A model generated the notes under the pieces. The model was not told where the DNA came from. It saw only the letters and a program-made list of their open reading frames with translations, and did no database searches. Source: a virus (Duplodnaviria; Caudoviricetes). Taken from it: a stretch of 33,979 bases of DNA. Positions 2,689 to 33,979 of the stretch are shown one piece after another (positions within the stretch are counted from its first letter, which is position 1; each line of letters opens with the position of its first letter). The stretch covers positions 1-33,979 of the IMG/VR virus record IMGVR_UViG_3300032292_000307. One strand, given 5' to 3'. The position numbers and the translations under genes were made by a program.

Positions 2689-2694
2689 ACCGAG

Positions 2695-2721
2695 CTGCGC
2701 GGATCGCAGTGTTTTATTTTT
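2695..2721 (+). terminator. Weak intrinsic terminator (tR1-like position)
   Basis: ctgcg-cggat-cgcag hairpin followed by tgttttattttt. Confidence 0.4.
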
Positions 2722-7356: not shown

Positions 7357-7814
7357 CAAGCAAAGAGAAGATAACGAGTGCGCAAACCAGCAAAAACTTA
7401 GGGGAGACGCCGTCTTATGAGCTGGGCGACATTGACATCATCAGGGCTTGTGGGATGGCTGGGCAGAGCAACCCGTTGGGGCTGTCGATTTGGAGGTGGC
7501 GATATGCCGGTGACACGCGCGAGGTGTTTAAGGTCGCGGAGGGTTTGATAGCTAAGGGTTATGAGACCAGGGTGGTGTATGTGGTTTTGGATCACCTGGC
7601 CAACGACGTTTGCAAGGTATGCAAAGGTCGTGGTTATGGAATGATAGCGGGGGCCCCGGTATTGAACGGTGAGGTTTGCTTCGACTGCCGGGGCACCGGT
7701 CGACGACCTTTGGACGGTGAAAAAGAACAGGCCCTGATCGAAGTGATCATGGGCCTGGAGAGGGAGATCGCGGGCAGCATCATGCGCCGACTGGCGCAGG
7801 ACCTTGATCTCTGA
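7353..7814 (+). CDS. Putative Q-like late-gene antiterminator/activator with DnaJ-type Zn finger
   Basis: CKVCKGRG...CFDCRGTG zinc finger; last gene of the replication operon. Function inferred from motif and position. Confidence 0.65.
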   Translation: MTSKEKITSAQTSKNLGETPSYELGDIDIIRACGMAGQSNPLGLSIWRWRYAGDTREVFKVAEGLIAKGYETRVVYVVLDHLANDVCKVCKGRGYGMIAGAPVLNGEVCFDCRGTGRRPLDGEKEQALIEVIMGLEREIAGSIMRRLAQDLDL

Positions 7815-8199
7815 TGACCTGGTTGCAGTGGGGGCAGATGTCTCGGCCCTCACGCCTCTTGATCGCACGGTGAACAGCTGACTCATGCACGCCTACCTGT
7901 TTGGCGGCTGCATATACAGTTAAGCCCTCGTCCAATACCATGGCCAGGGCCTGCATGGTTTTGGACAAGGGCTGTGCTGCATTTCGTGGATCGTCTCCGC
8001 GCTTGGACCAGATAGCAAAGGCAGTGTCTGGCCAAGATTCAGGCTTAGCCGTGAAGGCAGAGCATGAGGGGTGACCGGCATTGTCCCAAGCTACCAGGTA
8101 GCGCATGTCGTCCCGATCGGACATGACGCGCAACTTGTGGCGCACGTTGTCTGACCATGGGATGTCGTAGATGAAATTATCAAAGTCGAGCAAGTTCAT
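7780..8199 (-). CDS. HTH protein with C-terminal CxxC motif
   Basis: Start reassigned to ATG 8199 (ATGA overlap). GLTVYAAAKQVGVHESAVHRAIKR is an HTH, followed by CPHC. Confidence 0.7.
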   Translation of the reverse strand: MNLLDFDNFIYDIPWSDNVRHKLRVMSDRDDMRYLVAWDNAGHPSCSAFTAKPESWPDTAFAIWSKRGDDPRNAAQPLSKTMQALAMVLDEGLTVYAAAKQVGVHESAVHRAIKRREGRDICPHCNQVIRDQGPAPVGA

Positions 8200-9620: not shown

Positions 9621-9693
9621 CCTGGCAACCGGCCAGATCGGAGTGCAAGCGCACTGGTCAGGGCACCCAAGTGGATGCCCTGCACCGCTGTGC
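9621..9693 (-). ncRNA. Structured intergenic element, family B copy 1 (two hairpins + mini-pseudoknot before the RBS)
   Basis: RNA: CAGGGCAUCC-ACUU-GGGUGCCCUG hairpin, AGUGC-GCUU-GCACU hairpin, then CCG AU CUGGC CGG UU GCCAG. Covaries with the copy at 11562. Confidence 0.6.
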
Positions 9694-10650
9694 TTACGCG
9701 GTTAACAAGTCCAAGGCGCGGGACTTGAGGTCAGCGCCTGCACCCCACTGGGATGCAACGAAGCGGTTCTCATCGCTACGAGCGCGGACGTGGTGGTCAG
9801 CGTATTCGGTGACCGCGTTGAGGAAACCCCAGCGTGTACCGAAGACACCGTCCATGGTGGAGCCCATGCCGCCGCCGTTGAAGAGGTCCAGGACCTTCTT
9901 GAAACCGGCAGTCTCACGGGCTTTGTCACCGCCACCGAAGAGCGTGACGGCCATGTCGCCAGCCTGCTCTTCGTGCATGTCGACGTTGGCCAGGCTTGTC
10001 ACTGTGTGACGGAAGGCATCCCAGGCAGCGGTGTTCAAGCCCATGAATTCTTTGATTGATTCAGGGTTGAACACAGAGCGGTGAGTCACCTTGAATGACG
10101 CGGGAGCGTCAGCCATGGCCATCTGCAAAGTGTTCTTGCAGACGGTGCGAACAGTGGTACGACGTACCTCAGTGGACAGCGATCCGTCAGCCGAGGTGCT
10201 GATCAGGATGTAGCCACCGATCTTGTCGGCCAGTGAAGCGGGAGAGGCTTCGCCAATCTTGGCCGTAGCCCAGAAACGCTTGCCACCGTAGATCGTGCCA
10301 GCTGCTGACAACTCCAGGCCACCGGCCTTGGCGATGTCGCGGAAGAACTCGATCACTTCACCAGGCTGCACGACCTGGTACTTGCGGGACACGACACCCA
10401 AGGGTGCTTTTGTGTCGGAGCGGAACAGAACGTGCTGGTCCGGCAACTCGACCTGGCCACCGTTGTATTCGGTGTTGAAGCGGACGATGCCGCGCTTGAT
10501 CCTCCAGTCCATGCCAGCAGCCTCGCGCCAAGCATCGAGGCTGGTGCCGTCGGCGAGTGCTTGGCCAAGGCCGTGCCAGGGTGTTCCGTCCGAGGCCAAG
10601 TAGGCAAATTCGACACGGCCATCAGCGCGGGTTGTGAGTTCGTGAGACAT
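9694..10650 (-). CDS. DUF932 family protein (phage/plasmid-like protein TIGR03299)
   Basis: TPWHGLG, LGVVSRKYQVVQP, TSADGS, VRTVCKNTL and GTRWGFLNAVTEYADH are characteristic DUF932 motifs. Confidence 0.9.
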   Translation of the reverse strand: MSHELTTRADGRVEFAYLASDGTPWHGLGQALADGTSLDAWREAAGMDWRIKRGIVRFNTEYNGGQVELPDQHVLFRSDTKAPLGVVSRKYQVVQPGEVIEFFRDIAKAGGLELSAAGTIYGGKRFWATAKIGEASPASLADKIGGYILISTSADGSLSTEVRRTTVRTVCKNTLQMAMADAPASFKVTHRSVFNPESIKEFMGLNTAAWDAFRHTVTSLANVDMHEEQAGDMAVTLFGGGDKARETAGFKKVLDLFNGGGMGSTMDGVFGTRWGFLNAVTEYADHHVRARSDENRFVASQWGAGADLKSRALDLLTA

Positions 10651-10671: not shown

Positions 10672-10733
10672 ACCAAGCAGTTACGGTCGCCTGGATACAC
10701 CGCCAATACCCGGCACGCCGGGCATTGCAAGGG
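10672..10733 (-). ncRNA. Structured intergenic element, family A copy (CGUG hairpin + H-type pseudoknot)
   Basis: RNA CAAUGCCCGG-CGUG-CCGGGUAUUG, then GCGGU GUAU CCAGGC G ACCGU AACU GCUUGG U, upstream of the DUF932 RBS. Confidence 0.75.
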
Positions 10734-11030
10734 CTATGCGCCCTCCATTTCAAACAACCAGTCACCACCCATGGCAGCTTCGACGAAGCTGATGCTGCCC
10801 TTGGTGCCTTCTTTCACGTCATCCCGCGAGGGGATCGCGTTGCCCCAGTAGTCGCGGGCAGCGTTGGGGCCAAGCAGGCAGTGGCCAGAGTTGATGGCAG
10901 CCATCATGGCCCGGCCATAGCTGCCCTCCATCGACCAGTGACCGGCGTTGATGGCGCGCTGCACGCTGAGGTAGTAGTCGAGTTCATCGAGAGACAACCC
11001 AGCGTCGAGCATCAGTTCTTCGATAGCCAT
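10734..11030 (-). CDS. Hypothetical phage protein
   Basis: 98 aa; WSMEGSYGRAMM...DYWGNAIPSR; AAGGA RBS. Confidence 0.75.
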   Translation of the reverse strand: MAIEELMLDAGLSLDELDYYLSVQRAINAGHWSMEGSYGRAMMAAINSGHCLLGPNAARDYWGNAIPSRDDVKEGTKGSISFVEAAMGGDWLFEMEGA

Positions 11031-11042
11031 ATCAGTTTTCCT

Positions 11043-11255
11043 TTAAAGTTTAGATTCCATGGCCCTAAACAGCAGGGCCTTGGCGCGGTTAAGAGATTGC
11101 CGAGCGCCTTCAACATCGCCGAAGGCCATTTGTTCCTGGGCATCCGACATCAGTCCAGCGACGACCATGTTGACGCCGCTGACCTGGTAGGTAAACGACT
11201 CAACCACGCTGGCGACAAACTCATCGATGTCGCAGCCGTACATCTGGTCGACCAT
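11043..11255 (-). CDS. Hypothetical protein
   Basis: Start ATG 11255 (MVDQMYGCDIDEF...LMSDAQEQM...ARQSLNRAK) with GGAG RBS. Confidence 0.7.
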   Translation of the reverse strand: MVDQMYGCDIDEFVASVVESFTYQVSGVNMVVAGLMSDAQEQMAFGDVEGARQSLNRAKALLFRAMESKL

Positions 11256-11256
11256 G

Positions 11257-11544
11257 TCAGTTCTCCAGAGGTTCGGTTTGAGCGGCCAGCAAGTTGTAGC
11301 TGGTGGTTGTGTACTTGGTGACCAGGTCGGCGGGAGCTTTGAGCTCCTGGGCAACCTTGGACCAGGCAGTGGTCTTTTTCTCGGGGGTCAACTTGACCGT
11401 GGTGACGTACATGCTGCCTCTGTAAGTGCCAGCACCCAACAACTTGATTTTGCTTTTCAAGTCTTCGGCCTGTTCTTGCAGGGCGTCGATCTGGTCTTCC
11501 AACAGGCCGAGCTGGTCGACCATCTTCAAAGCGGTGGTATCCAT
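11257..11544 (-). CDS. Hypothetical protein with N-terminal coiled coil
   Basis: Start ATG 11544 (MDTTALKMVDQLGLLEDQIDALQEQAEDLK) with GGAG RBS. Confidence 0.7.
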   Translation of the reverse strand: MDTTALKMVDQLGLLEDQIDALQEQAEDLKSKIKLLGAGTYRGSMYVTTVKLTPEKKTTAWSKVAQELKAPADLVTKYTTTSYNLLAAQTEPLEN

Positions 11545-11561
11545 AAAATCTCCAAACAAAC

Positions 11562-11631
11562 ACCAGCAACCGGCTGGCACGGAGTGTTGATCACACTGCA
11601 CTACACCCTGTCACGGTGTAGCACGCTGGGA
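11562..11631 (-). ncRNA. Structured intergenic element, family B copy 2
   Basis: RNA: CUACACC-7nt-GGUGUAG, AGUGU-GAUCA-ACACU, then CCG UG CCAGC CGG UU GCUGG. Confidence 0.6.
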
Positions 11632-11811
11632 TCAAGCAGGGGCAAACAGCTTGCGACCTTCACGCATGAACACGCGGAAGGCAGCAGCTTCGCGGTTGTC
11701 GAGTTCGTCGTTGGCGAGCATCTCTTCCATAACGAGCAGCATGTCCAAGAAGGTCATGCCGTAAATCTCGCGCTTGTCGTCGATAATGTTGATTGCGGTT
11801 GTGATGTCCAT
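11632..11811 (-). CDS. Hypothetical protein
   Basis: 59 aa from ATG 11811, GGAG RBS. Confidence 0.65.
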   Translation of the reverse strand: MDITTAINIIDDKREIYGMTFLDMLLVMEEMLANDELDNREAAAFRVFMREGRKLFAPA

Positions 11812-11813
11812 GT

Positions 11814-12023
11814 TTATCTCCAAACTGAGTAAGGTTCGCCACCGCTGAGCGCGATGTCGTAGGGTGAAAAGATCGGTGTGAATTTGCGGGCGCTGTTCAT
11901 AATGTTGACAGCGTTGTCGTAGAAGTCTTCGCGCAAGGTGTCAAAACGCTTGCCCCCTACTTCTACCAGCGGCATTTCCAGATCGATCAGTTGTACGCTG
12001 ATCGGTATTTCGCGGTACTTCAT
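11814..12023 (-). CDS. Hypothetical protein
   Basis: 69 aa, GGAGG RBS, ATGA overlap. Confidence 0.65.
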   Translation of the reverse strand: MKYREIPISVQLIDLEMPLVEVGGKRFDTLREDFYDNAVNIMNSARKFTPIFSPYDIALSGGEPYSVWR

Positions 12024-12214
12024 ACGACCTCCGGTGTGTAGGCGTTGACGTACTCGATTTCATAACCGAGGGCCTTGATCGCGACCAGGTCGCTGGTGCT
12101 GAAGGTCTTTGTGCCGACCAGGGCAGCAAGCAACTCAGCAGTGCGGTTGCCTGGTGCTGGGTAAACCTTGGGAAGGCCGTACACCGATTTGATTGTCAAA
12201 ACGACAGTTGGCAT
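12020..12214 (-). CDS. Hypothetical phage protein
   Basis: IKSVYG...YP...LAALVGTKTF...IKALGYEI; AGGAG RBS. Confidence 0.75.
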   Translation of the reverse strand: MPTVVLTIKSVYGLPKVYPAPGNRTAELLAALVGTKTFSTSDLVAIKALGYEIEYVNAYTPEVV

Positions 12215-12231
12215 GTCTATCTCCTGAAAGT

Positions 12232-12263
12232 ACCGGGCTGTTATGGCCGCCCGGATACGCCAT
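12232..12263 (-). ncRNA. Family A pseudoknot, diverged copy without the upstream hairpin
   Basis: RNA AUGGC GUAU CCGGGC G GCCAU AACA GCCCGG U; both stems differ in sequence from the other copies but keep their pairing. Confidence 0.7.
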
Positions 12264-12268
12264 GCCGT

Positions 12269-12535
12269 TTACGCGGCCTCGAACGTCACTTCAGCAACGT
12301 CCATGATTCCGGCCAAACGACCGTTTGCATTGATCGAGTATTCGATCTGTTCGACAGTCGGTTTGAAACAACCGCTGTAGTCAGCTTGTTGGCCGCACTT
12401 GCGTGAGCCTTCAAACCACACCAGTGAAATGATGTTGCCAACTGGCGCACCCTTCACTGTGTAAACCTGGGCGTCGGCGTGTTGACCACGCACAATCAAT
12501 AACCCAGGACGCATGTCTTGCTTTTTGTAACGCAT
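12269..12535 (-). CDS. Hypothetical protein
   Basis: MRYKKQDMRPG...; AAAGGA RBS (alternative start 12541). Confidence 0.65.
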   Translation of the reverse strand: MRYKKQDMRPGLLIVRGQHADAQVYTVKGAPVGNIISLVWFEGSRKCGQQADYSGCFKPTVEQIEYSINANGRLAGIMDVAEVTFEAA

Positions 12536-12552
12536 GACCATCCTTTCAAAAT

Positions 12553-12624
12553 ACCAAGCAGTTGCGGTCGCCTGGATACACCGCCAATGCCAAGCACGCT
12601 GGGCATTGGAAGGGCCGAAGCCCT
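12553..12624 (-). ncRNA. Family A copy (cUUCGg hairpin + CGUG hairpin + pseudoknot)
   Basis: AGGGC-UUCG-GCCCU, CCAAUGCCCAG-CGUG-CUUGGCAUUGG, then GCGGU GUAU CCAGGC G ACCGC AACU GCUUGG U. Confidence 0.75.
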
Positions 12625-12629
12625 GGGGG

Positions 12630-12725
12630 TTAGGAGTTCAACCACTCCTCAAAGGTTTTGATTGGCAAGCCGAGAGACTCGGCACATGCCACATAGATGG
12701 CGTAACGCGATTGCAAAGTTTCCAT
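12630..12725 (-). CDS. 31-aa phage peptide
   Basis: METLQSRYAIYVACAESLGLPIKTFEEWLNS*, AAGGAG RBS; below the ORF-track cutoff. Confidence 0.7.
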   Translation of the reverse strand: METLQSRYAIYVACAESLGLPIKTFEEWLNS

Positions 12726-12740
12726 ATTTACTCCTTGAAG

Positions 12741-12953
12741 TTAAGTTCCGTAAGTAGCCCAGTCGGGCATTTCCCACAGCCATTCGCGAGCTGTGTAAGG
12801 TAATGATTCCCGTGTCCGTTCGTTGTTGGCGTATGCAACCAGCGCAGCGCGATCCGACCGAAGCCGTTCAAGCGTGGCAGTTACATGCGCATCGGGCCGG
12901 TACGACTCAAACATCTTGATGTTGAAGTCGATCTTGGCAAGTGCTTTTTCCAT
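12741..12953 (-). CDS. Hypothetical protein, first gene of the early leftward operon
   Basis: MEKALAKIDFNIK... from ATG 12953 with GGAG RBS. Confidence 0.65.
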   Translation of the reverse strand: MEKALAKIDFNIKMFESYRPDAHVTATLERLRSDRAALVAYANNERTRESLPYTAREWLWEMPDWATYGT

Positions 12954-12968
12954 GCTGATCTCCAAAGT

Positions 12969-13025
12969 ACCAAGCAGTCACGGTCGCCTGGATACACCGC
13001 CGGAAGGCAGCACGCTGACTTCTGG
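12969..13025 (-). ncRNA. Family A copy within the operon leader
   Basis: CCAGAAGUCAG-CGUG-CUGCCUUCCGG, then GCGGU GUAU CCAGGC G ACCGU GACU GCUUGG U. Confidence 0.75.
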
Positions 13026-13169
13026 ACCATCCTTCGCACTCGTCAGTCTGGGGGACTGGTTCTTAGCGGTCTGGCCTTTGGGTTCCCTGGTCGGTACTTC
13101 GTAATCAGCTGGTTCCCTTTTTGTATCCCCCTGGTCCTTCGGGGCTGGGTCGTTACCGACCACGAATTA

Positions 13170-13197
13170 AATGTACCACACTGACAGGCACTGTCCA
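13170..13197 (-). promoter_or_regulatory. Putative sigma70 promoter for the leftward early operon
   Basis: TGGACA-16 nt-TACATT with extended -10 TG, and an AT-rich region upstream. Confidence 0.55.
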
Positions 13198-19590: not shown

Positions 19591-20487
19591 GTGGAACAAC
19601 AACTATCCGAAGAGGAAACGCAAAAACTCTGGAACGAAGAAGCCGCAAAACTTGAAGCCAGTGAGCCATCACCCGCATTCGAGACCCAAGGCGTTGCGCC
19701 GGTAGACCCGCCGCAAGACCCTCAACCCCAGGACCCTGCGCCAGTTCAAGGACAAGACGTTGATCCGCTGGCAGGACTACCAGAACCAGTGAGGCAGGCC
19801 CTAACCCGCATCACAGAACTGGAGACCGCTAACTCTCAACTGCTGCACCACGTAAAGACTGCCGAGGGTCGCGTGGCCGCGATGCAGCGTGAATTCCAGC
19901 AGGCACGCCAGGCCCAACAATCCGTTGGGTCACAGGACGCGCCTTCGCAGGGAGCCATAGCTGCCGCTGCCAAGAACCCCGAGAAGTGGGAGCAGCTCAA
20001 GCAAGATTTCCCGGAATGGGCCGGGGCGATGGAAGAGTACGTTGGAGCCAAGCTCAGCGGTATGCAAAGCGGTGTTCAGGCCACCCAGGTCGTTGAATAC
20101 GTGCAAGCACAACAGGCTGCGCTTAGAAACCAAATGCAAGCTGCCATTGAAGAGGCCCGTGTCGAAGGCAAATACGAAGACTGGAAACAGACGATTAACA
20201 CATCGGACTTTGCCCAGTGGTTCGCTATTCAGCCAACCGAGGTGAGAGCCTTGGCCGACAGTCCACACGGCAGAGACGCAATCAAGATGTTGGACATGTT
20301 CAACAACGTGAGAGCACGACCTGCTTCGGAGATTAGGCAAGAGCGCGGAGCACGACTCGCCGCAGCCGCGACGACCCGACCTGGTCAGACACCGCCGCCC
20401 AAGACATTGGACGACTTGTCGCCAGAAGAACTCTGGAACTACGAGGCCAAGAAGCGCGAAGAGAAAAAAGCGCAACAAGGCTACTGA
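19591..20487 (+). CDS. Probable capsid scaffolding protein
   Basis: Acidic Pro-rich N-terminus, coiled coils, immediately upstream of the capsid gene; GTG start with GGAG RBS. Confidence 0.7.
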   Translation: MEQQLSEEETQKLWNEEAAKLEASEPSPAFETQGVAPVDPPQDPQPQDPAPVQGQDVDPLAGLPEPVRQALTRITELETANSQLLHHVKTAEGRVAAMQREFQQARQAQQSVGSQDAPSQGAIAAAAKNPEKWEQLKQDFPEWAGAMEEYVGAKLSGMQSGVQATQVVEYVQAQQAALRNQMQAAIEEARVEGKYEDWKQTINTSDFAQWFAIQPTEVRALADSPHGRDAIKMLDMFNNVRARPASEIRQERGARLAAAATTRPGQTPPPKTLDDLSPEELWNYEAKKREEKKAQQGY

Positions 20488-25829: not shown

Positions 25830-27406
25830 GCAATAACTTTTACACACACGGGTCTTTCCCGACTACCGGTTCGGCGGCAACATCTGCGTCTATGCGGTCT
25901 GAGTTGGACCTGATCACCGCTGGCTTTGACAAATTACCAACGCTAACAGCAAACGCAAACAAGTTTGTTGTTGTCAACAGCGCGGGTACGGCGCTGACTG
26001 CCACCAGCGCGTTGCCTGCGGGCACCGTGACCGATACCACGTTCACTGTTCAAAATACTACTGACAACACCAAGACTTTTCAGTTCTTGGCCAGCGGCAT
26101 CACGGCGGGCACTTTGCGCATCTACACAATGCCGGATGCCAGCACGACCCTGGTGGGTATTGGCGTTACACAGACGTTGACCAACAAAACGCTGACTGCG
26201 CCAGTCATTGCAACGATTGTCAACACTGGCACGCTAACGCTGCCCACGTCTACCGATACCCTGGTCGGTCGGGCGACCACCGACACGTTGACCAACAAAA
26301 CGCTGACGTCTCCGGTCATCGGCACTATTGTCAACACCGGCACGCTTACATTGCCCACGTCTACCGATACTTTGGTCGGTCGGGCGACCACCGACACATT
26401 GACCAACAAAACGCTGACGTCTCCGGTCATCGGCACTATCGTCAACACCGGCACGTTGACGCTGCCTACGTCGACCGACACCCTTGTCGGTCGGGCGACC
26501 ACTGACACGTTAACCAACAAAACGCTGACAGCGCCGGTCATTGCAACGATTGTCAACACTGGCACGTTGACGCTGCCTACGTCGACCGACACCCTGGTCG
26601 GTCGGGTGACCACTGACACGTTGACCAACAAAACGCTGACAGCGCCGGTCATTGCAACTATTGTCAACACCGGCACACTGACGTTGCCCACGTCTACCGA
26701 CACCCTGGTCGGTCGGGCGACCACTGACACGTTGACCAACAAAACGCTGACAGCGCCAGTCATTGCAACGATTGTCAACACCGGCACACTGACGCTGCCT
26801 ACGTCGACCGACACCCTGGTCGGTCGGGCGACCACTGACACGCTGACCAACAAAACGCTGACAGCGCCGGTCATTGCAACGATTGTCAACACCGGCACGC
26901 TTACATTGCCTACGTCGACCGACACCCTGGTCGGTCGGGCGACCACTGACACGTTAACCAACAAAACGCTGACGTCTCCGGTCATCGGCACTATTGTCAA
27001 CACCGGCACGTTAACGCTGCCCACGTCGACCGACACCCTGGTCGGTCGGACGACCACTGACACGCTGACCAACAAACGTATTGACCCAAGGGTTACTTCA
27101 GCCGCATCAGCATCAACATTAACACCTGATATATCGGCTAGTGATGTTTACGCATACACAGCATTGGCGGCAGGACTCACTATCAATGCCCCAACTGGAA
27201 CACCTGTTGACGGAAACAAACTAATATTTAGGCTTTTGGATAACGGCACAAGCAGAGCATTGACTTGGAATGCAACCTACACAGTCATTGGCCTTGGTTT
27301 AACTTTGCCAACAACGACAACAGCAAGCAAAACAACGTATGTGGGTTGTATATATAACGCCAACAATACACGTTGGGATGTGATTGCAGTAGCCACAGAG
27401 GTTTGA
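25826..27406 (+). CDS. Tail fibre-like protein with 37-aa tandem repeats
   Basis: N-terminal anchor (ELDLITAGFDKLP), 8 TLTNKTLT-type repeats, and a distinct C-terminal domain. Confidence 0.75.
   Translation: MSNNFYTHGSFPTTGSAATSASMRSELDLITAGFDKLPTLTANANKFVVVNSAGTALTATSALPAGTVTDTTFTVQNTTDNTKTFQFLASGITAGTLRIYTMPDASTTLVGIGVTQTLTNKTLTAPVIATIVNTGTLTLPTSTDTLVGRATTDTLTNKTLTSPVIGTIVNTGTLTLPTSTDTLVGRATTDTLTNKTLTSPVIGTIVNTGTLTLPTSTDTLVGRATTDTLTNKTLTAPVIATIVNTGTLTLPTSTDTLVGRVTTDTLTNKTLTAPVIATIVNTGTLTLPTSTDTLVGRATTDTLTNKTLTAPVIATIVNTGTLTLPTSTDTLVGRATTDTLTNKTLTAPVIATIVNTGTLTLPTSTDTLVGRATTDTLTNKTLTSPVIGTIVNTGTLTLPTSTDTLVGRTTTDTLTNKRIDPRVTSAASASTLTPDISASDVYAYTALAAGLTINAPTGTPVDGNKLIFRLLDNGTSRALTWNATYTVIGLGLTLPTTTTASKTTYVGCIYNANNTRWDVIAVATEV
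26174..27076 (+). repeat. 8 x 111 bp coding tandem repeat plus a partial ninth copy
   Basis: Units start at 26174, 26285, 26396, 26507, 26618, 26729, 26840, 26951 and (partial) 27062. Confidence 0.95.
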
Positions 27407-33127: not shown

Positions 33128-33979
33128 ATGGCAACAGCAGCAGCAAATCCTTTTGACATTCAGACTGGGGGCAAGATCACGCCTGGGACAACCACCACTG
33201 CTGCACAGTTTGATCCGGTCCAACGCCAGGTTGACGCAACCAAGGAAACAACCTCTGGCCAACTGCAAACCATCTTAGGCCAAGACAGCCCGCTCATGCA
33301 GCAGGCACGCGCACAGGCCAAGCAGGGTATGGCTGCTCGAGGCTTGCTCAACAGCTCCATGGCCCAGGGAGCAGGCGTAGCGGCTATGCTGGAACGCGCC
33401 ACACCGATTGCAGCAGCCGATGCAGGCACATACTTCAACCAAGGCCAAACCAACCAACAGGCAGCTAACACAGGCGGCCAGTTCAATGTTAACCAACAAA
33501 ACACGTTTGGCTTGCAAAAAGGTGCCCAGGCTTTTGCCCTTACCGAACGCGAAGCTGGGCAGGCATTTACGTCTGGCCAAGCTGGCCTGGAACGCGAACA
33601 GCAGTCCAAGTTGCAAATGGCACAACAGACTTTTACTGGCGCTCAAACAACCTTAGACCGTGCACAACAGGTTGCGCTTACCGACAAAAGCATTGAAGCT
33701 CAACAAGCTTTGCAAGCAGCACAGCAAAACTTTAATGCTGCCCAAAGCGCACTCGACAGAACACAACAGACCTCATTGCAGACCGGTCAACAGACATTCA
33801 CTGCTGCTCAAAATAAAGCACAACAAGACCTTACCGTTGCGCAAACGGCTTTGGACCGCGCACAACAAATTGCGCTTACCGACAAAAGCATTGAAGCTCA
33901 AGCGGGTTTGCAAACCGCACAACAGAACTTTGCCGCCGCCCAAAGCGCACTCGACAGAACACAACAGACCTCATTGCAG
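33128..33979 (+). CDS. Probable internal virion/DNA ejection protein, Gln/Ala-rich, truncated at the window end
   Basis: Open frame from ATG 33128 (GGAG RBS): MATAAANPFDIQ...SPLMQQAR...AARGLLNSSMAQGAG..., with a ~66-aa repeat. Confidence 0.7.
   Translation, partial: MATAAANPFDIQTGGKITPGTTTTAAQFDPVQRQVDATKETTSGQLQTILGQDSPLMQQARAQAKQGMAARGLLNSSMAQGAGVAAMLERATPIAAADAGTYFNQGQTNQQAANTGGQFNVNQQNTFGLQKGAQAFALTEREAGQAFTSGQAGLEREQQSKLQMAQQTFTGAQTTLDRAQQVALTDKSIEAQQALQAAQQNFNAAQSALDRTQQTSLQTGQQTFTAAQNKAQQDLTVAQTALDRAQQIALTDKSIEAQAGLQTAQQNFAAAQSALDRTQQTSLQ

What the first reader, a model, noticed from the sequence alone, without database searches (positions are those of the whole stretch)
10672..13025. 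Four copies of a covarying 32-nt H-type pseudoknot (family A) upstream of early-gene RBSs
Seen: cores at 10672-10703, 12232-12263, 12553-12584 and 12969-13000 read on the minus strand as [P1]-GUAU-[P2]-G-[P1']-RACW-[P2']-U. P1 is GCGGU/ACCGY in three copies and AUGGC/GCCAU in the fourth. P2 is CCAGGC/GCUUGG versus CCGGGC/GCCCGG. Every stem substitution keeps pairing, including G-U to G-C swaps that only work on the coding strand, while the linkers GUAU, G and RAC are unchanged. Each copy ends a few nt before the Shine-Dalgarno of the next gene. Inference: a repeated cis-acting RNA module that marks gene blocks in a host-takeover operon. Possible roles are a translational operator/enhancer bound by one protein (precedent: T4 gene 32 pseudoknot), a nuclease-blocking 5' structure on processed mRNAs, a small ribozyme or ligand sensor, or a decoy resembling type III antitoxin pseudoknots (ToxI is a similar-sized H-type pseudoknot). 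I do not recognise it as a described motif.
Basis: partly seen in the sequence, partly recalled or inferred. Interest (0 to 1): 0.9.

Follow-up and report, generated by a model that had tools for sequence, protein, structure and literature searches.

The report
Tiny RNA knot capping phage messages
A family of uncultured freshwater phages repeats a 31-base sequence, whose paired positions change together as in a small RNA pseudoknot, just in front of the ribosome-binding sites of early genes; it matches no Rfam family and likely shields the start of each gene-sized message from decay, although no function has been tested.

Summary
The four copies are real and belong to a wider family: 57 of 81 DUF932-anchored phage loci carry it. 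Both stems covary, also in tests not built into the search pattern. Corrections: stem P1 is 4 bp, not 5; the linkers vary; most copies carry an 11-bp hairpin (P0) abutting P1.

The knot ends 15-22 nt before the AUG in 94 of 105 contexts. A second, unrelated knot (D) takes the same place, also three times in this window. In relatives D lies 7-9 nt behind hammerhead cuts or just behind promoters. So family A is the counterpart of that 5' knot, not of the hammerhead.

Best reading (0.36): a 5' cap that hinders RNase E on processed or primary early mRNAs; P0 may be an RNase III site. Close rival (0.28): an S1/30S landing pad. Ribozyme 0.09; ToxI decoy unsupported. Copies also mark gene gain and loss.

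No Rfam match; two motif catalogues could not be searched in full. The scan has not reported this sequence before, only similar kinds on other DNA.

The parts
12969..12999 (-). Family A knot, copy 1 (ancestral position: end of the early leader); 16 nt from stem end to AUG at 12953
13000..13025 (-). P0 hairpin of copy 1 (11 bp with mismatches, CGUG loop), 0 nt from P1
12553..12583 (-). Family A knot, copy 2; 18 nt to AUG at 12535
12584..12609 (-). P0 hairpin of copy 2; pairs 3-6 match the RNase III proximal box
12611..12624 (-). UUCG hairpin between the upstream stop codon (12630-12632) and P0; would be the 3' end of the upstream message if P0 is cut
   Evidence: 33 of 103 contexts; role inferred
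12232..12263 (-). Family A knot, copy 3; no P0, P1 extended to 5 bp, P2 all Watson-Crick; 18 nt to AUG at 12214
10672..10702 (-). Family A knot, copy 4; 22 nt to AUG of the DUF932 gene at 10650
10703..10728 (-). P0 hairpin of copy 4 (G-G mismatch at its base)
11563..11582 (-). Family D knot (3 bp + 5 bp, 2-nt loops), unrelated in sequence, same place before the RBS of gene 11544
9622..9641 (-). Family D knot before gene 9606
2690..2709 (+). Family D knot before gene 2731, at the head of the replication genes
11583..11633 (-). Family B element upstream of D (second, diverged copy about 9642-9693); candidate processing element
   Evidence: role inferred
13026..13163 (-). Early leader with conserved family C motif, upstream of copy 1
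   Evidence: 40 of 103 contexts follow C
13170..13197 (-). Sigma-70-like early promoter (9 of 12, with TG)
   Evidence: consensus match only
9694..10650 (-). DUF932 gene, used as anchor for the comparison

Best explanation
Family A is a conserved 31-nt sequence with covarying stems of a small H-type RNA pseudoknot, placed 15-22 nt before early-gene start codons, that likely acts as a 5' cap: it would hinder RNase E from entering and scanning the downstream message, so that each early gene block becomes a separately stabilised mRNA. Shown: repetition, covariation of both stems, position, the abutting P0 hairpin, interchange with knot D, and D's place just behind hammerhead cuts and predicted promoters. 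Inferred: that the knot folds in the cell; that a 5' end is made at or near its first base (for P0 copies possibly by RNase III, whose two-base stagger would put the 3'-strand cut exactly at the P0/P1 border); that RNase E is the enzyme blocked. In the full cassette a UUCG hairpin would guard the 3' end of the upstream piece and the A/U spacer would feed the SD. As a side effect the repeats are crossover points for gene gain and loss.
For: (1) Structure: 98% of 449 cells paired, 5 of 10 pairs with two-sided changes, 0 of 500 shuffles; P1 complete in 54 of 59 hits whose pattern lacked its 5' strand. (2) Two sequence-unrelated knots share the place: knot end to AUG median 18-20 nt, never under 15, so shape matters more than sequence. 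RNase E is hindered by H-type pseudoknots whatever their make-up and bypasses ordinary stem-loops (PMC9943677). (3) Where a 5' end can be located, a knot is next to it: D 7-9 nt after the hammerhead cut in 13 of 13 contexts; D 7-14 nt after a -10 box in 8 of 12 contexts lacking B or a hammerhead (background 51 of 5000); A 23 nt after an 11-of-12 promoter in L061, where P0 has decayed. (4) P0 pairs 3-6 keep the pattern of the RNase III proximal box, including which pairs flip; pair 5, the strongest antideterminant position, is A-U or U-A in 34 of 34; box in 78 of 99 contexts against 19 of 750 other hairpins. (5) An RNase E-like site (motif recalled) lies in the spacer in 102 of 133 contexts. 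(6) Precedent: T4 gene 32 mRNA is cut at -71, has its pseudoknot at -67 and is the most stable T4 mRNA (PMC3014915; the review does not credit the knot). (7) In 16 loci a plain hairpin stands in the same place behind B (by eye), as expected if any 5'-terminal structure serves. (8) Weak: contigs of two RNA studies stop at 10690 and 10691, about 11 nt inside copy 4.
Against: No RNA end or half-life was observed. Knots of 8 and 11 pairs are only modest obstacles; D has 8, A 10-11. A hammerhead leaves a 5'-OH, which does not trigger RNase E scanning (established knowledge), and RNase J was over cut-off in 0 of 61 genomes of one candidate host family, so D behind a hammerhead is poorly explained. 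Copy 3 and its kin have neither P0 nor a promoter. By E. coli rules P0 is a poor RNase III substrate: 9 bp from cut to loop where 11 are needed, and no distal box. RNA-library contigs run through copies 1, 2 and 3, and one reaches 12605 inside P0, across the predicted cut. The promoter and hammerhead contexts come from one clade, so they are one or two events; the P0 counts are also inflated by descent. The host is unknown. Short phage leaders would put any such element near a 5' end.
Confidence: 0.36

Rival explanations
1. The knot plus the A/U spacer is a landing pad for ribosomal protein S1 and the 30S subunit, enhancing fresh initiation at the next gene. It is not exclusive of the cap role.
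For: The 3' side is the constant part in every context: knot end to SD 5-9 nt in 90 of 105, spacer 83% A/U, never closer than 15 nt to the AUG. S1 binds pseudoknots and A/U-rich stretches 5' of the SD (PMC10931766); a pseudoknot is needed for S1-dependent tisB translation (PMC7708055). The S1-selected knot has loops of 3/0/7 nt and, as far as the figure text can be read, stems of about 4 and 6 bp and an A/C-rich third loop, close to family A (4 and 6 bp; 3-4/1/5-6). It covers the 5'-OH and no-P0 contexts.
Against: Knot D has 2-nt loops and little resemblance to the selected ligand; a plain hairpin can replace the knot. The figure was read from unformatted text. The nearly fixed stem bases suggest selection for a stable fold more than for S1, which has little sequence preference.
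Confidence: 0.28
2. The knot, or P0 with its CGUG loop, is an operator bound by a phage or host protein that shuts early genes off together, as gp32 or Aca proteins do.
For: Repeated motif with fixed bases; an HTH gene lies in the same operon (7780-8199); Aca1 and Aca2 bind 5'-UTR structures (PMC13551039); gp32 nucleates on a pseudoknot followed by A/U-rich RNA. An AGCGUG-type sequence also occurs in family B.
Against: Unrelated knots share the place; the knot lies outside the 30S footprint; the A/U tract is 5-9 nt, against a long tract for gene 32; the loop varies freely in divergent copies and resembles a stable CUUG-type tetraloop (recalled). No candidate protein was tested for co-occurrence.
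Confidence: 0.13
3. Family A, with or without P0, is an unrecognised small self-cleaving ribozyme that cuts the early transcript as hammerheads do in relatives.
For: Before the DUF932 gene, 17 loci have A and 18 have a hammerhead (by eye, 79 loci shown). Clustered hammerheads flank phage genes (PMC3088659). A conserved G, a conserved A, a loop 2-loop 3 pair (44 of 45 paired) and a variable bulged base cluster at the stem junction.
Against: The hammerhead comes with knot D behind it, so A corresponds to D; all 15 loci in which the script found a hammerhead also carry A elsewhere. Only two unpaired bases are constant, and both were in my patterns. Four RNA-library contigs span copies (may be DNA). 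In L061 A lies just behind a promoter. No core of a known class.
Confidence: 0.09
4. P2 plus the following U run is a weak intrinsic terminator that grades expression along the operon, with P1 as a modulator.
For: Copies 2 and 4 score as terminator-like; many copies have 4-7 U after P2.
Against: The U run is missing in the hammerhead clade and in divergent copies; termination would fall just before the SD of the first early gene; 11 hits against 6.8 in shuffles is unremarkable.
Confidence: 0.05
5. Ligand-sensing riboswitch, or ToxI-like decoy.
For: Size and H-type topology resemble type III antitoxins and small riboswitches.
Against: No conserved pairing with the SD and unrelated downstream genes; copies dispersed, not tandem between promoter and terminator; no ToxN-family gene found (weak: nothing rang in the controls either).
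Confidence: 0.05
6. The repeats matter only as DNA crossover sites or are neutral hitch-hikers of duplicated RBS cassettes.
For: Chimeric junctions in 5 of 26 near-identical contexts, of two types.
Against: Two-sided changes in both stems and G-U asymmetry need selection on single-stranded RNA; 42 of 57 loci with A show a single copy within the DNA fetched.
Confidence: 0.04

Closest known systems
T4/T2 gene 32 mRNA pseudoknot (PMC3014915)
   Same: H-type knot in a phage 5' leader, followed by A/U-rich RNA and the RBS, 4 nt from a processed 5' end, on a very stable mRNA.
   Different: Single copy, 67 nt upstream, autogenous operator for gp32. Family A is repeated before unrelated genes and ends 15-22 nt from the AUG.
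Pseudoknot obstacles to RNase E scanning (PMC9943677)
   Same: Compact coaxial H-type knot of about 10-11 pairs upstream of cleavable RNA.
   Different: Shown with engineered viral and telomerase knots in E. coli; family A is untested, of modest size, host unknown.
S1-binding pseudoknots: SELEX ligand, tisB, rpsO (PMC7708055, PMC10931766)
   Same: Similar stem and loop sizes, A/C-rich third loop, A/U-rich single strand 3' of the knot.
   Different: tisB's knot is about 100 nt upstream of a sequestered RBS; family A sits next to the SD; binding untested.
Clustered phage hammerheads (PMC3088659) and the synthetic insulator RiboJ (search listing only; design recalled)
   Same: Same gene-junction niche; relatives use hammerhead + knot D + SD, like ribozyme + hairpin + RBS.
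   Different: Family A has no hammerhead core; it matches the structure behind the cut, not the cutter.
RNase III sites of T7 type, minimal substrate uR1.1 (PMC1540722)
   Same: P0 is 11 bp with a tetraloop and carries a proximal-box pattern.
   Different: Box register leaves 9 bp to the loop and no distal box; the lower half is a pseudoknot.
PeSL cassettes of T4-type phages (PMC2839356)
   Same: Repeated intergenic cassettes ending in an SD that mark gain and loss of small ORFs.
   Different: PeSLs hold a sigma-70 promoter and a terminator hairpin; 0 of 102 P0-type contexts have a promoter within 32 nt.
Type III antitoxins and pseudo-ToxI (PMC3475682, PMC12283969)
   Same: About 30-36 nt, H-type, adenosines in the last loop.
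   Different: Tandem repeats before a terminator and a toxin gene; family A is dispersed and tied to RBSs.

Membership tests
Any Rfam 15 family | Covariance-model match | tested here: not met
   nothing meaningful over any copy. Control: a hammerhead in L047 was found only at E 0.26 and missed at gathering score, so sensitivity is limited and pseudoknot pairs are not modelled.
H-type pseudoknot | Two crossing stems, each kept by compensatory change | tested here: met
H-type pseudoknot | Both stems formed at once in the RNA | not testable with these tools
   Folding tools are nested only; P2 alone -7.2 to -12.2, P1 alone -3.2 to -4.7 kcal/mol
Hammerhead ribozyme | CUGANGA, GAAA and UH core on three stems | tested here: not met
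   no hit in the window; 15 distinct hits in relatives, none overlapping A
Other small ribozymes (twister, pistol, hatchet, twister sister, HDV-like) | Class core and topology | tested here: not met
   No Rfam hit; topology compared from recalled consensus only
Self-cleaving ribozyme, any class | Site-specific self-cleavage | not testable with these tools
   Indirect only: four RNA-library contigs span copies
Type III antitoxin / pseudo-ToxI | Tandem repeats between promoter and terminator | tested here: not met
   Copies 321-1560 nt apart, each before an RBS
Type III antitoxin / pseudo-ToxI | Cognate toxin gene or toxin binding | tested here: inconclusive
   One search found no ToxN, but its controls did not ring and the genome is 61% complete; a decoy needs no toxin gene
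Translational riboswitch | Expression platform that pairs with the SD | tested here: not met
   SD begins 5 or more nt after P2 in 104 of 104 contexts with an SD; no conserved anti-SD seen
T4 gene 32-type operator | Upstream of the gene of its binding protein, long A/U tract into the RBS | tested here: not met
   Many unrelated downstream genes; tract 5-9 nt
RNase III site (P0) | Proximal box W-W, A-U, W-W, G-C | tested here: met
   first position is G-U in 15 of 34
RNase III site (P0) | 11 bp from cut to loop and U-A/U-G distal box | tested here: not met
   9 bp, distal box would fall in the loop
PeSL | Promoter inside the cassette | tested here: not met
   0 of 102 and 1 of 15 contexts
PeSL | Gene gain or loss at the repeats | tested here: met
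   5 chimeric contexts of 26; mini-circles not testable
RNase E obstacle / S1 ligand | Protects downstream RNA / binds S1 | not testable with these tools
   Needs reporter and binding assays

The most novel reading that the evidence does not exclude
Family A is a new class of self-cleaving ribozyme of only about 31 nt: a bulged, variable base at the P1/P2 junction is the cut site, flanked by a conserved G and A, and these phages swap it freely with hammerheads at the same gene junctions.
Probability: 0.09. Interest if true: 0.95.

Novelty: new variant of a known kind. Interest (0 to 1): 0.62.

Why it matters
Why phages scatter ribozymes and small structures between early genes is an open question (PMC6765202). 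This clade shows a parts list: an upstream module (P0, hammerhead, B or a promoter), a tiny knot (A or D), an A/U spacer and an SD, shuffled among genes. If the cap reading holds, it is a natural, repeated use of pseudoknots as RNase E obstacles; if the S1 reading holds, a natural counterpart of the S1-selected knot used as an enhancer. Either is testable in E. coli reporters with a 31-nt insert and could give a very small expression part. A new ribozyme class would matter far more but is unlikely.

Tried and rejected
Rfam: whole window, sub-regions and 16 loci gave nothing. Scan of bacterial genomes: about 1900 chance matches in GC-rich DNA; 11 of 120 loci passed a pairing-plus-SD filter and none had the family context. 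Model search of 151 genomes of the Variovorax family: 0 hits, a weak test since only 47 candidates per genome were scored. Cultured phages: no DNA match, proteins under 42% identical, so no host assigned; endolysin homologues unnamed. Simple insulation: withholding the knot's bases left predicted RBS accessibility unchanged, 0.48 against 0.46, better in 77 of 133; rejected as the main role. Promoter reading of the repeat: rejected. A 5-bp P1 and a seventh P2 pair (4 of 29 paired): rejected. The loop 2-loop 3 pair covaries but rests on one clade (2 changes on the left side). Motif strings were not found in the supplement of PMC10085705 or in 6 supplementary files of PMC10690425; three files of the latter and the supplement of PMC5737381 could not be read and may hold this motif. 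Only four RNA runs were laid, all as contigs, with no DNA run beside them; uncovered stretches there are no evidence. One search used a mis-counted pattern and one search's D search had a fault; replace them. PADLOC: no hit in 15 early proteins.
Full report
SETTING. The window is the whole record G000, a linear, 61% complete phage contig with primase, helicase, terminase, portal, capsid, spanin and endolysin genes. Spanins point to a Gram-negative host; no closer host could be assigned. Runs that hold the region are river and lake samples. A leftward run of small genes starts behind a sigma-70-like promoter at 13197-13170. Only DUF932, an HD domain and an HTH protein are recognised in it.

OBSERVATION. 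The four cores are present as described. A degenerate pattern gives these four and 0 in 100 shuffles. Pattern scans and 80 loci anchored on the DUF932 protein gave the family. It is in 57 of 81 anchored loci including the window, in two or more copies in 15. Its most constant place is the end of the early leader, before the first gene.

STRUCTURE. Alignment A1 has 45 distinct cores: 44 of the 53 that a sequence-led pattern returned (9 dropped as lacking pairing or an SD), plus L061. On it 98% of 449 cells pair, 5 of 10 pairs change on both sides, and sliding the partners destroys the signal. Because rows were partly chosen for pairing, two cleaner tests matter. With the 5' strand of P1 left out of the pattern, 54 of 59 contexts still had a full P1; the other 5 lacked the family context. 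Where the pattern allowed any Y with any R at pair 4-16, 53 of 53 were Watson-Crick (about 7 of these are chance hits in coding DNA). G-U outnumbers A-C 24 to 3, as expected for RNA on the coding strand. The model is P1 4 bp, loop 1 3-4 nt, P2 6 bp, loop 2 1 nt, loop 3 5-6 nt. The loop 2 base can pair with the last-but-one base of loop 3 in 44 of 45 rows, leaving one bulged base that is never C; this rests on one clade. Several 'invariant' bases were in my patterns, though the covariance model found no further variants in 62 sources down to E 2.

CONTEXT. In 105 contexts the knot ends 15-22 nt before the AUG in 94, never closer than 15, across a spacer that is 83% A/U (0 hits in shuffles). A hairpin abuts P1 with no gap in 86 of 105, with a CGUG loop in 84. 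This P0 has 11 pairs. Before P0 lies the leader motif C (40 of 103) or a UUCG hairpin (33 of 103). Copy 3 lacks P0 and has stronger stems, so P0 may also simply stack on and support the short P1.

THE KEY COMPARISON. Before the DUF932 gene (79 of the 80 loci shown, sorted by eye), 17 loci have A, 18 a hammerhead, 16 element B and 28 nothing I recognised. This first suggested a ribozyme. But each hammerhead is followed by a second tiny knot, D (3 bp + 5 bp), found in 63 contexts against 1 in shuffles, a few of them chance, and three times in the window. D keeps the same distance to the AUG as A. It lies 7-9 nt behind the hammerhead cut in 13 of 13 contexts, behind B in 40, and 7-14 nt behind a -10 box in 8 of the other 12 (background 51 of 5000). 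A lies 23 nt behind a strong promoter in L061. All 15 loci where the script found a hammerhead also carry A at their leader. So the layout is [upstream module][knot][A/U spacer][SD], and A corresponds to D. The promoter and hammerhead cases are one clade and count as one or two events.

P0 AS A CUT SITE. Pairs 3-6 of P0 are W-W (30 of 34), A-U (30), W-W (34) and G-Y (33). The E. coli RNase III proximal box, read from the cut, is A-U/U-A, A-U, A-U/U-A, G-C (PMC1540722; passages and sections 12 and 13). The box is in 78 of 99 contexts against 19 of 750 other hairpins and persists in copies with unrelated loops. The two-base stagger would put the 3'-strand cut at the knot's first base. Against this, only 9 bp remain to the loop where 11 are needed, there is no distal box, and one RNA-library contig crosses the site. 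I give processing at P0 about 0.3.

MECHANISM. RNase E scans from a 5' monophosphate, passes stem-loops and is slowed by H-type knots in proportion to size, whatever their sequence (PMC9943677; passages and Discussion). That explains why a knot, why two unrelated ones, and why near 5' ends. T4 gene 32 gives a natural parallel (PMC3014915; passages and section 24). I therefore take the 5' cap as most likely, at 0.36. It explains D behind a 5'-OH poorly, and the knots are small. The S1 landing pad (PMC7708055, passages and supplement part 2; PMC10931766, passages) covers every context because the 3' side is the constant one; 0.28. The two may both hold. An operator role has precedent (PMC13551039, passages) but no direct sign. 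Simple insulation was not supported.

RNA DATA. Four RNA runs were laid, all as contigs. Contigs cover much of the early region; four run through copies 1, 2 or 3, and two from different studies stop at 10690 and 10691 inside copy 4. Contigs show neither strand nor ends and may come from DNA, so both points are weak.

SHUFFLING. Among 26 contexts close to the window's own, 4 join the upstream side of copy 2 to the downstream side of copy 3 and 1 joins copy 2 to copy 4. The direction is unknown. This parallels PeSLs (PMC2839356, passages), but these cassettes hold no promoter.

NOVELTY. No Rfam family matches (control). Full-text searches turned up no description. Passages of the Minerva preprint, PMC10085705 (outline, sections 12 and 17, supplement), PMC6765202, PMC3088659, PMC12283969, PMC5737381 and PMC3475682 describe other motifs. 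PMC10690425 was searched only in 6 supplementary files. Unread supplements may hold the motif unnamed, and subscription papers are not in the library. Look-ups of earlier scan notes by sequence and place showed nothing; by words they showed similar kinds on other DNA, which I did not test.

VERDICT. A real, uncatalogued, covarying RNA pseudoknot family within a modular gene-junction system; function untested. New variant of a known kind; interest 0.62.

Noticed in passing
window 11563-11582 (-), 9622-9641 (-), 2690-2709 (+); L046-L065: Family D: a 20-nt knot with covarying 5-bp stem before RBSs, behind hammerheads, element B or promoters. A variant with a 1-nt loop 2 occurs in L070, L073, L075, L077, L088 and L149.
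   Followed up: partly
window 11583-11633 and about 9642-9693 (-); L029-L045: Family B: a conserved internal loop on a long stem; a 5' four-base segment covaries with the loop of a 3' hairpin in at least five sequence versions. No Rfam hit in the window. A better ribozyme or processing candidate than A.
   Followed up: partly
window 13026-13163 (-): Family C leader: conserved structured motif behind the early promoter, with a covarying hairpin and a C-rich loop; precedes A in 40 of 103 contexts; could be released as a small RNA.
   Followed up: partly
L046:5904, L047:5906 and related loci: Canonical hammerheads before the DUF932 gene that Rfam misses at gathering score.
   Followed up: partly
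window 13178-13194 (-) and 7780-8199 (-): The early promoter overlaps a short inverted repeat; similar repeats lie in promoters of relatives (L052, L053, L054, L061). The HTH gene at the operon's end is a candidate repressor.
   Followed up: no
L046, L047, L051-L057, about 100 nt after the DUF932 stop: A promoter appears inserted between element B and knot D in part of the hammerhead clade.
   Followed up: partly
window 26063-27139 (+): About nine 111-bp repeats in a tail-fibre-like gene.
   Followed up: no
window 33620-33979 (+): Two copies of a 162-nt stretch, 198 nt apart, at the contig end; a related 28-mer at 20107.
   Followed up: no
window 11031-11257 and 11806-12019: Single RNA-library contigs skip the genes 11043-11255 and 11814-12023: strain variants lacking small genes, at junctions without family A.
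   Followed up: no
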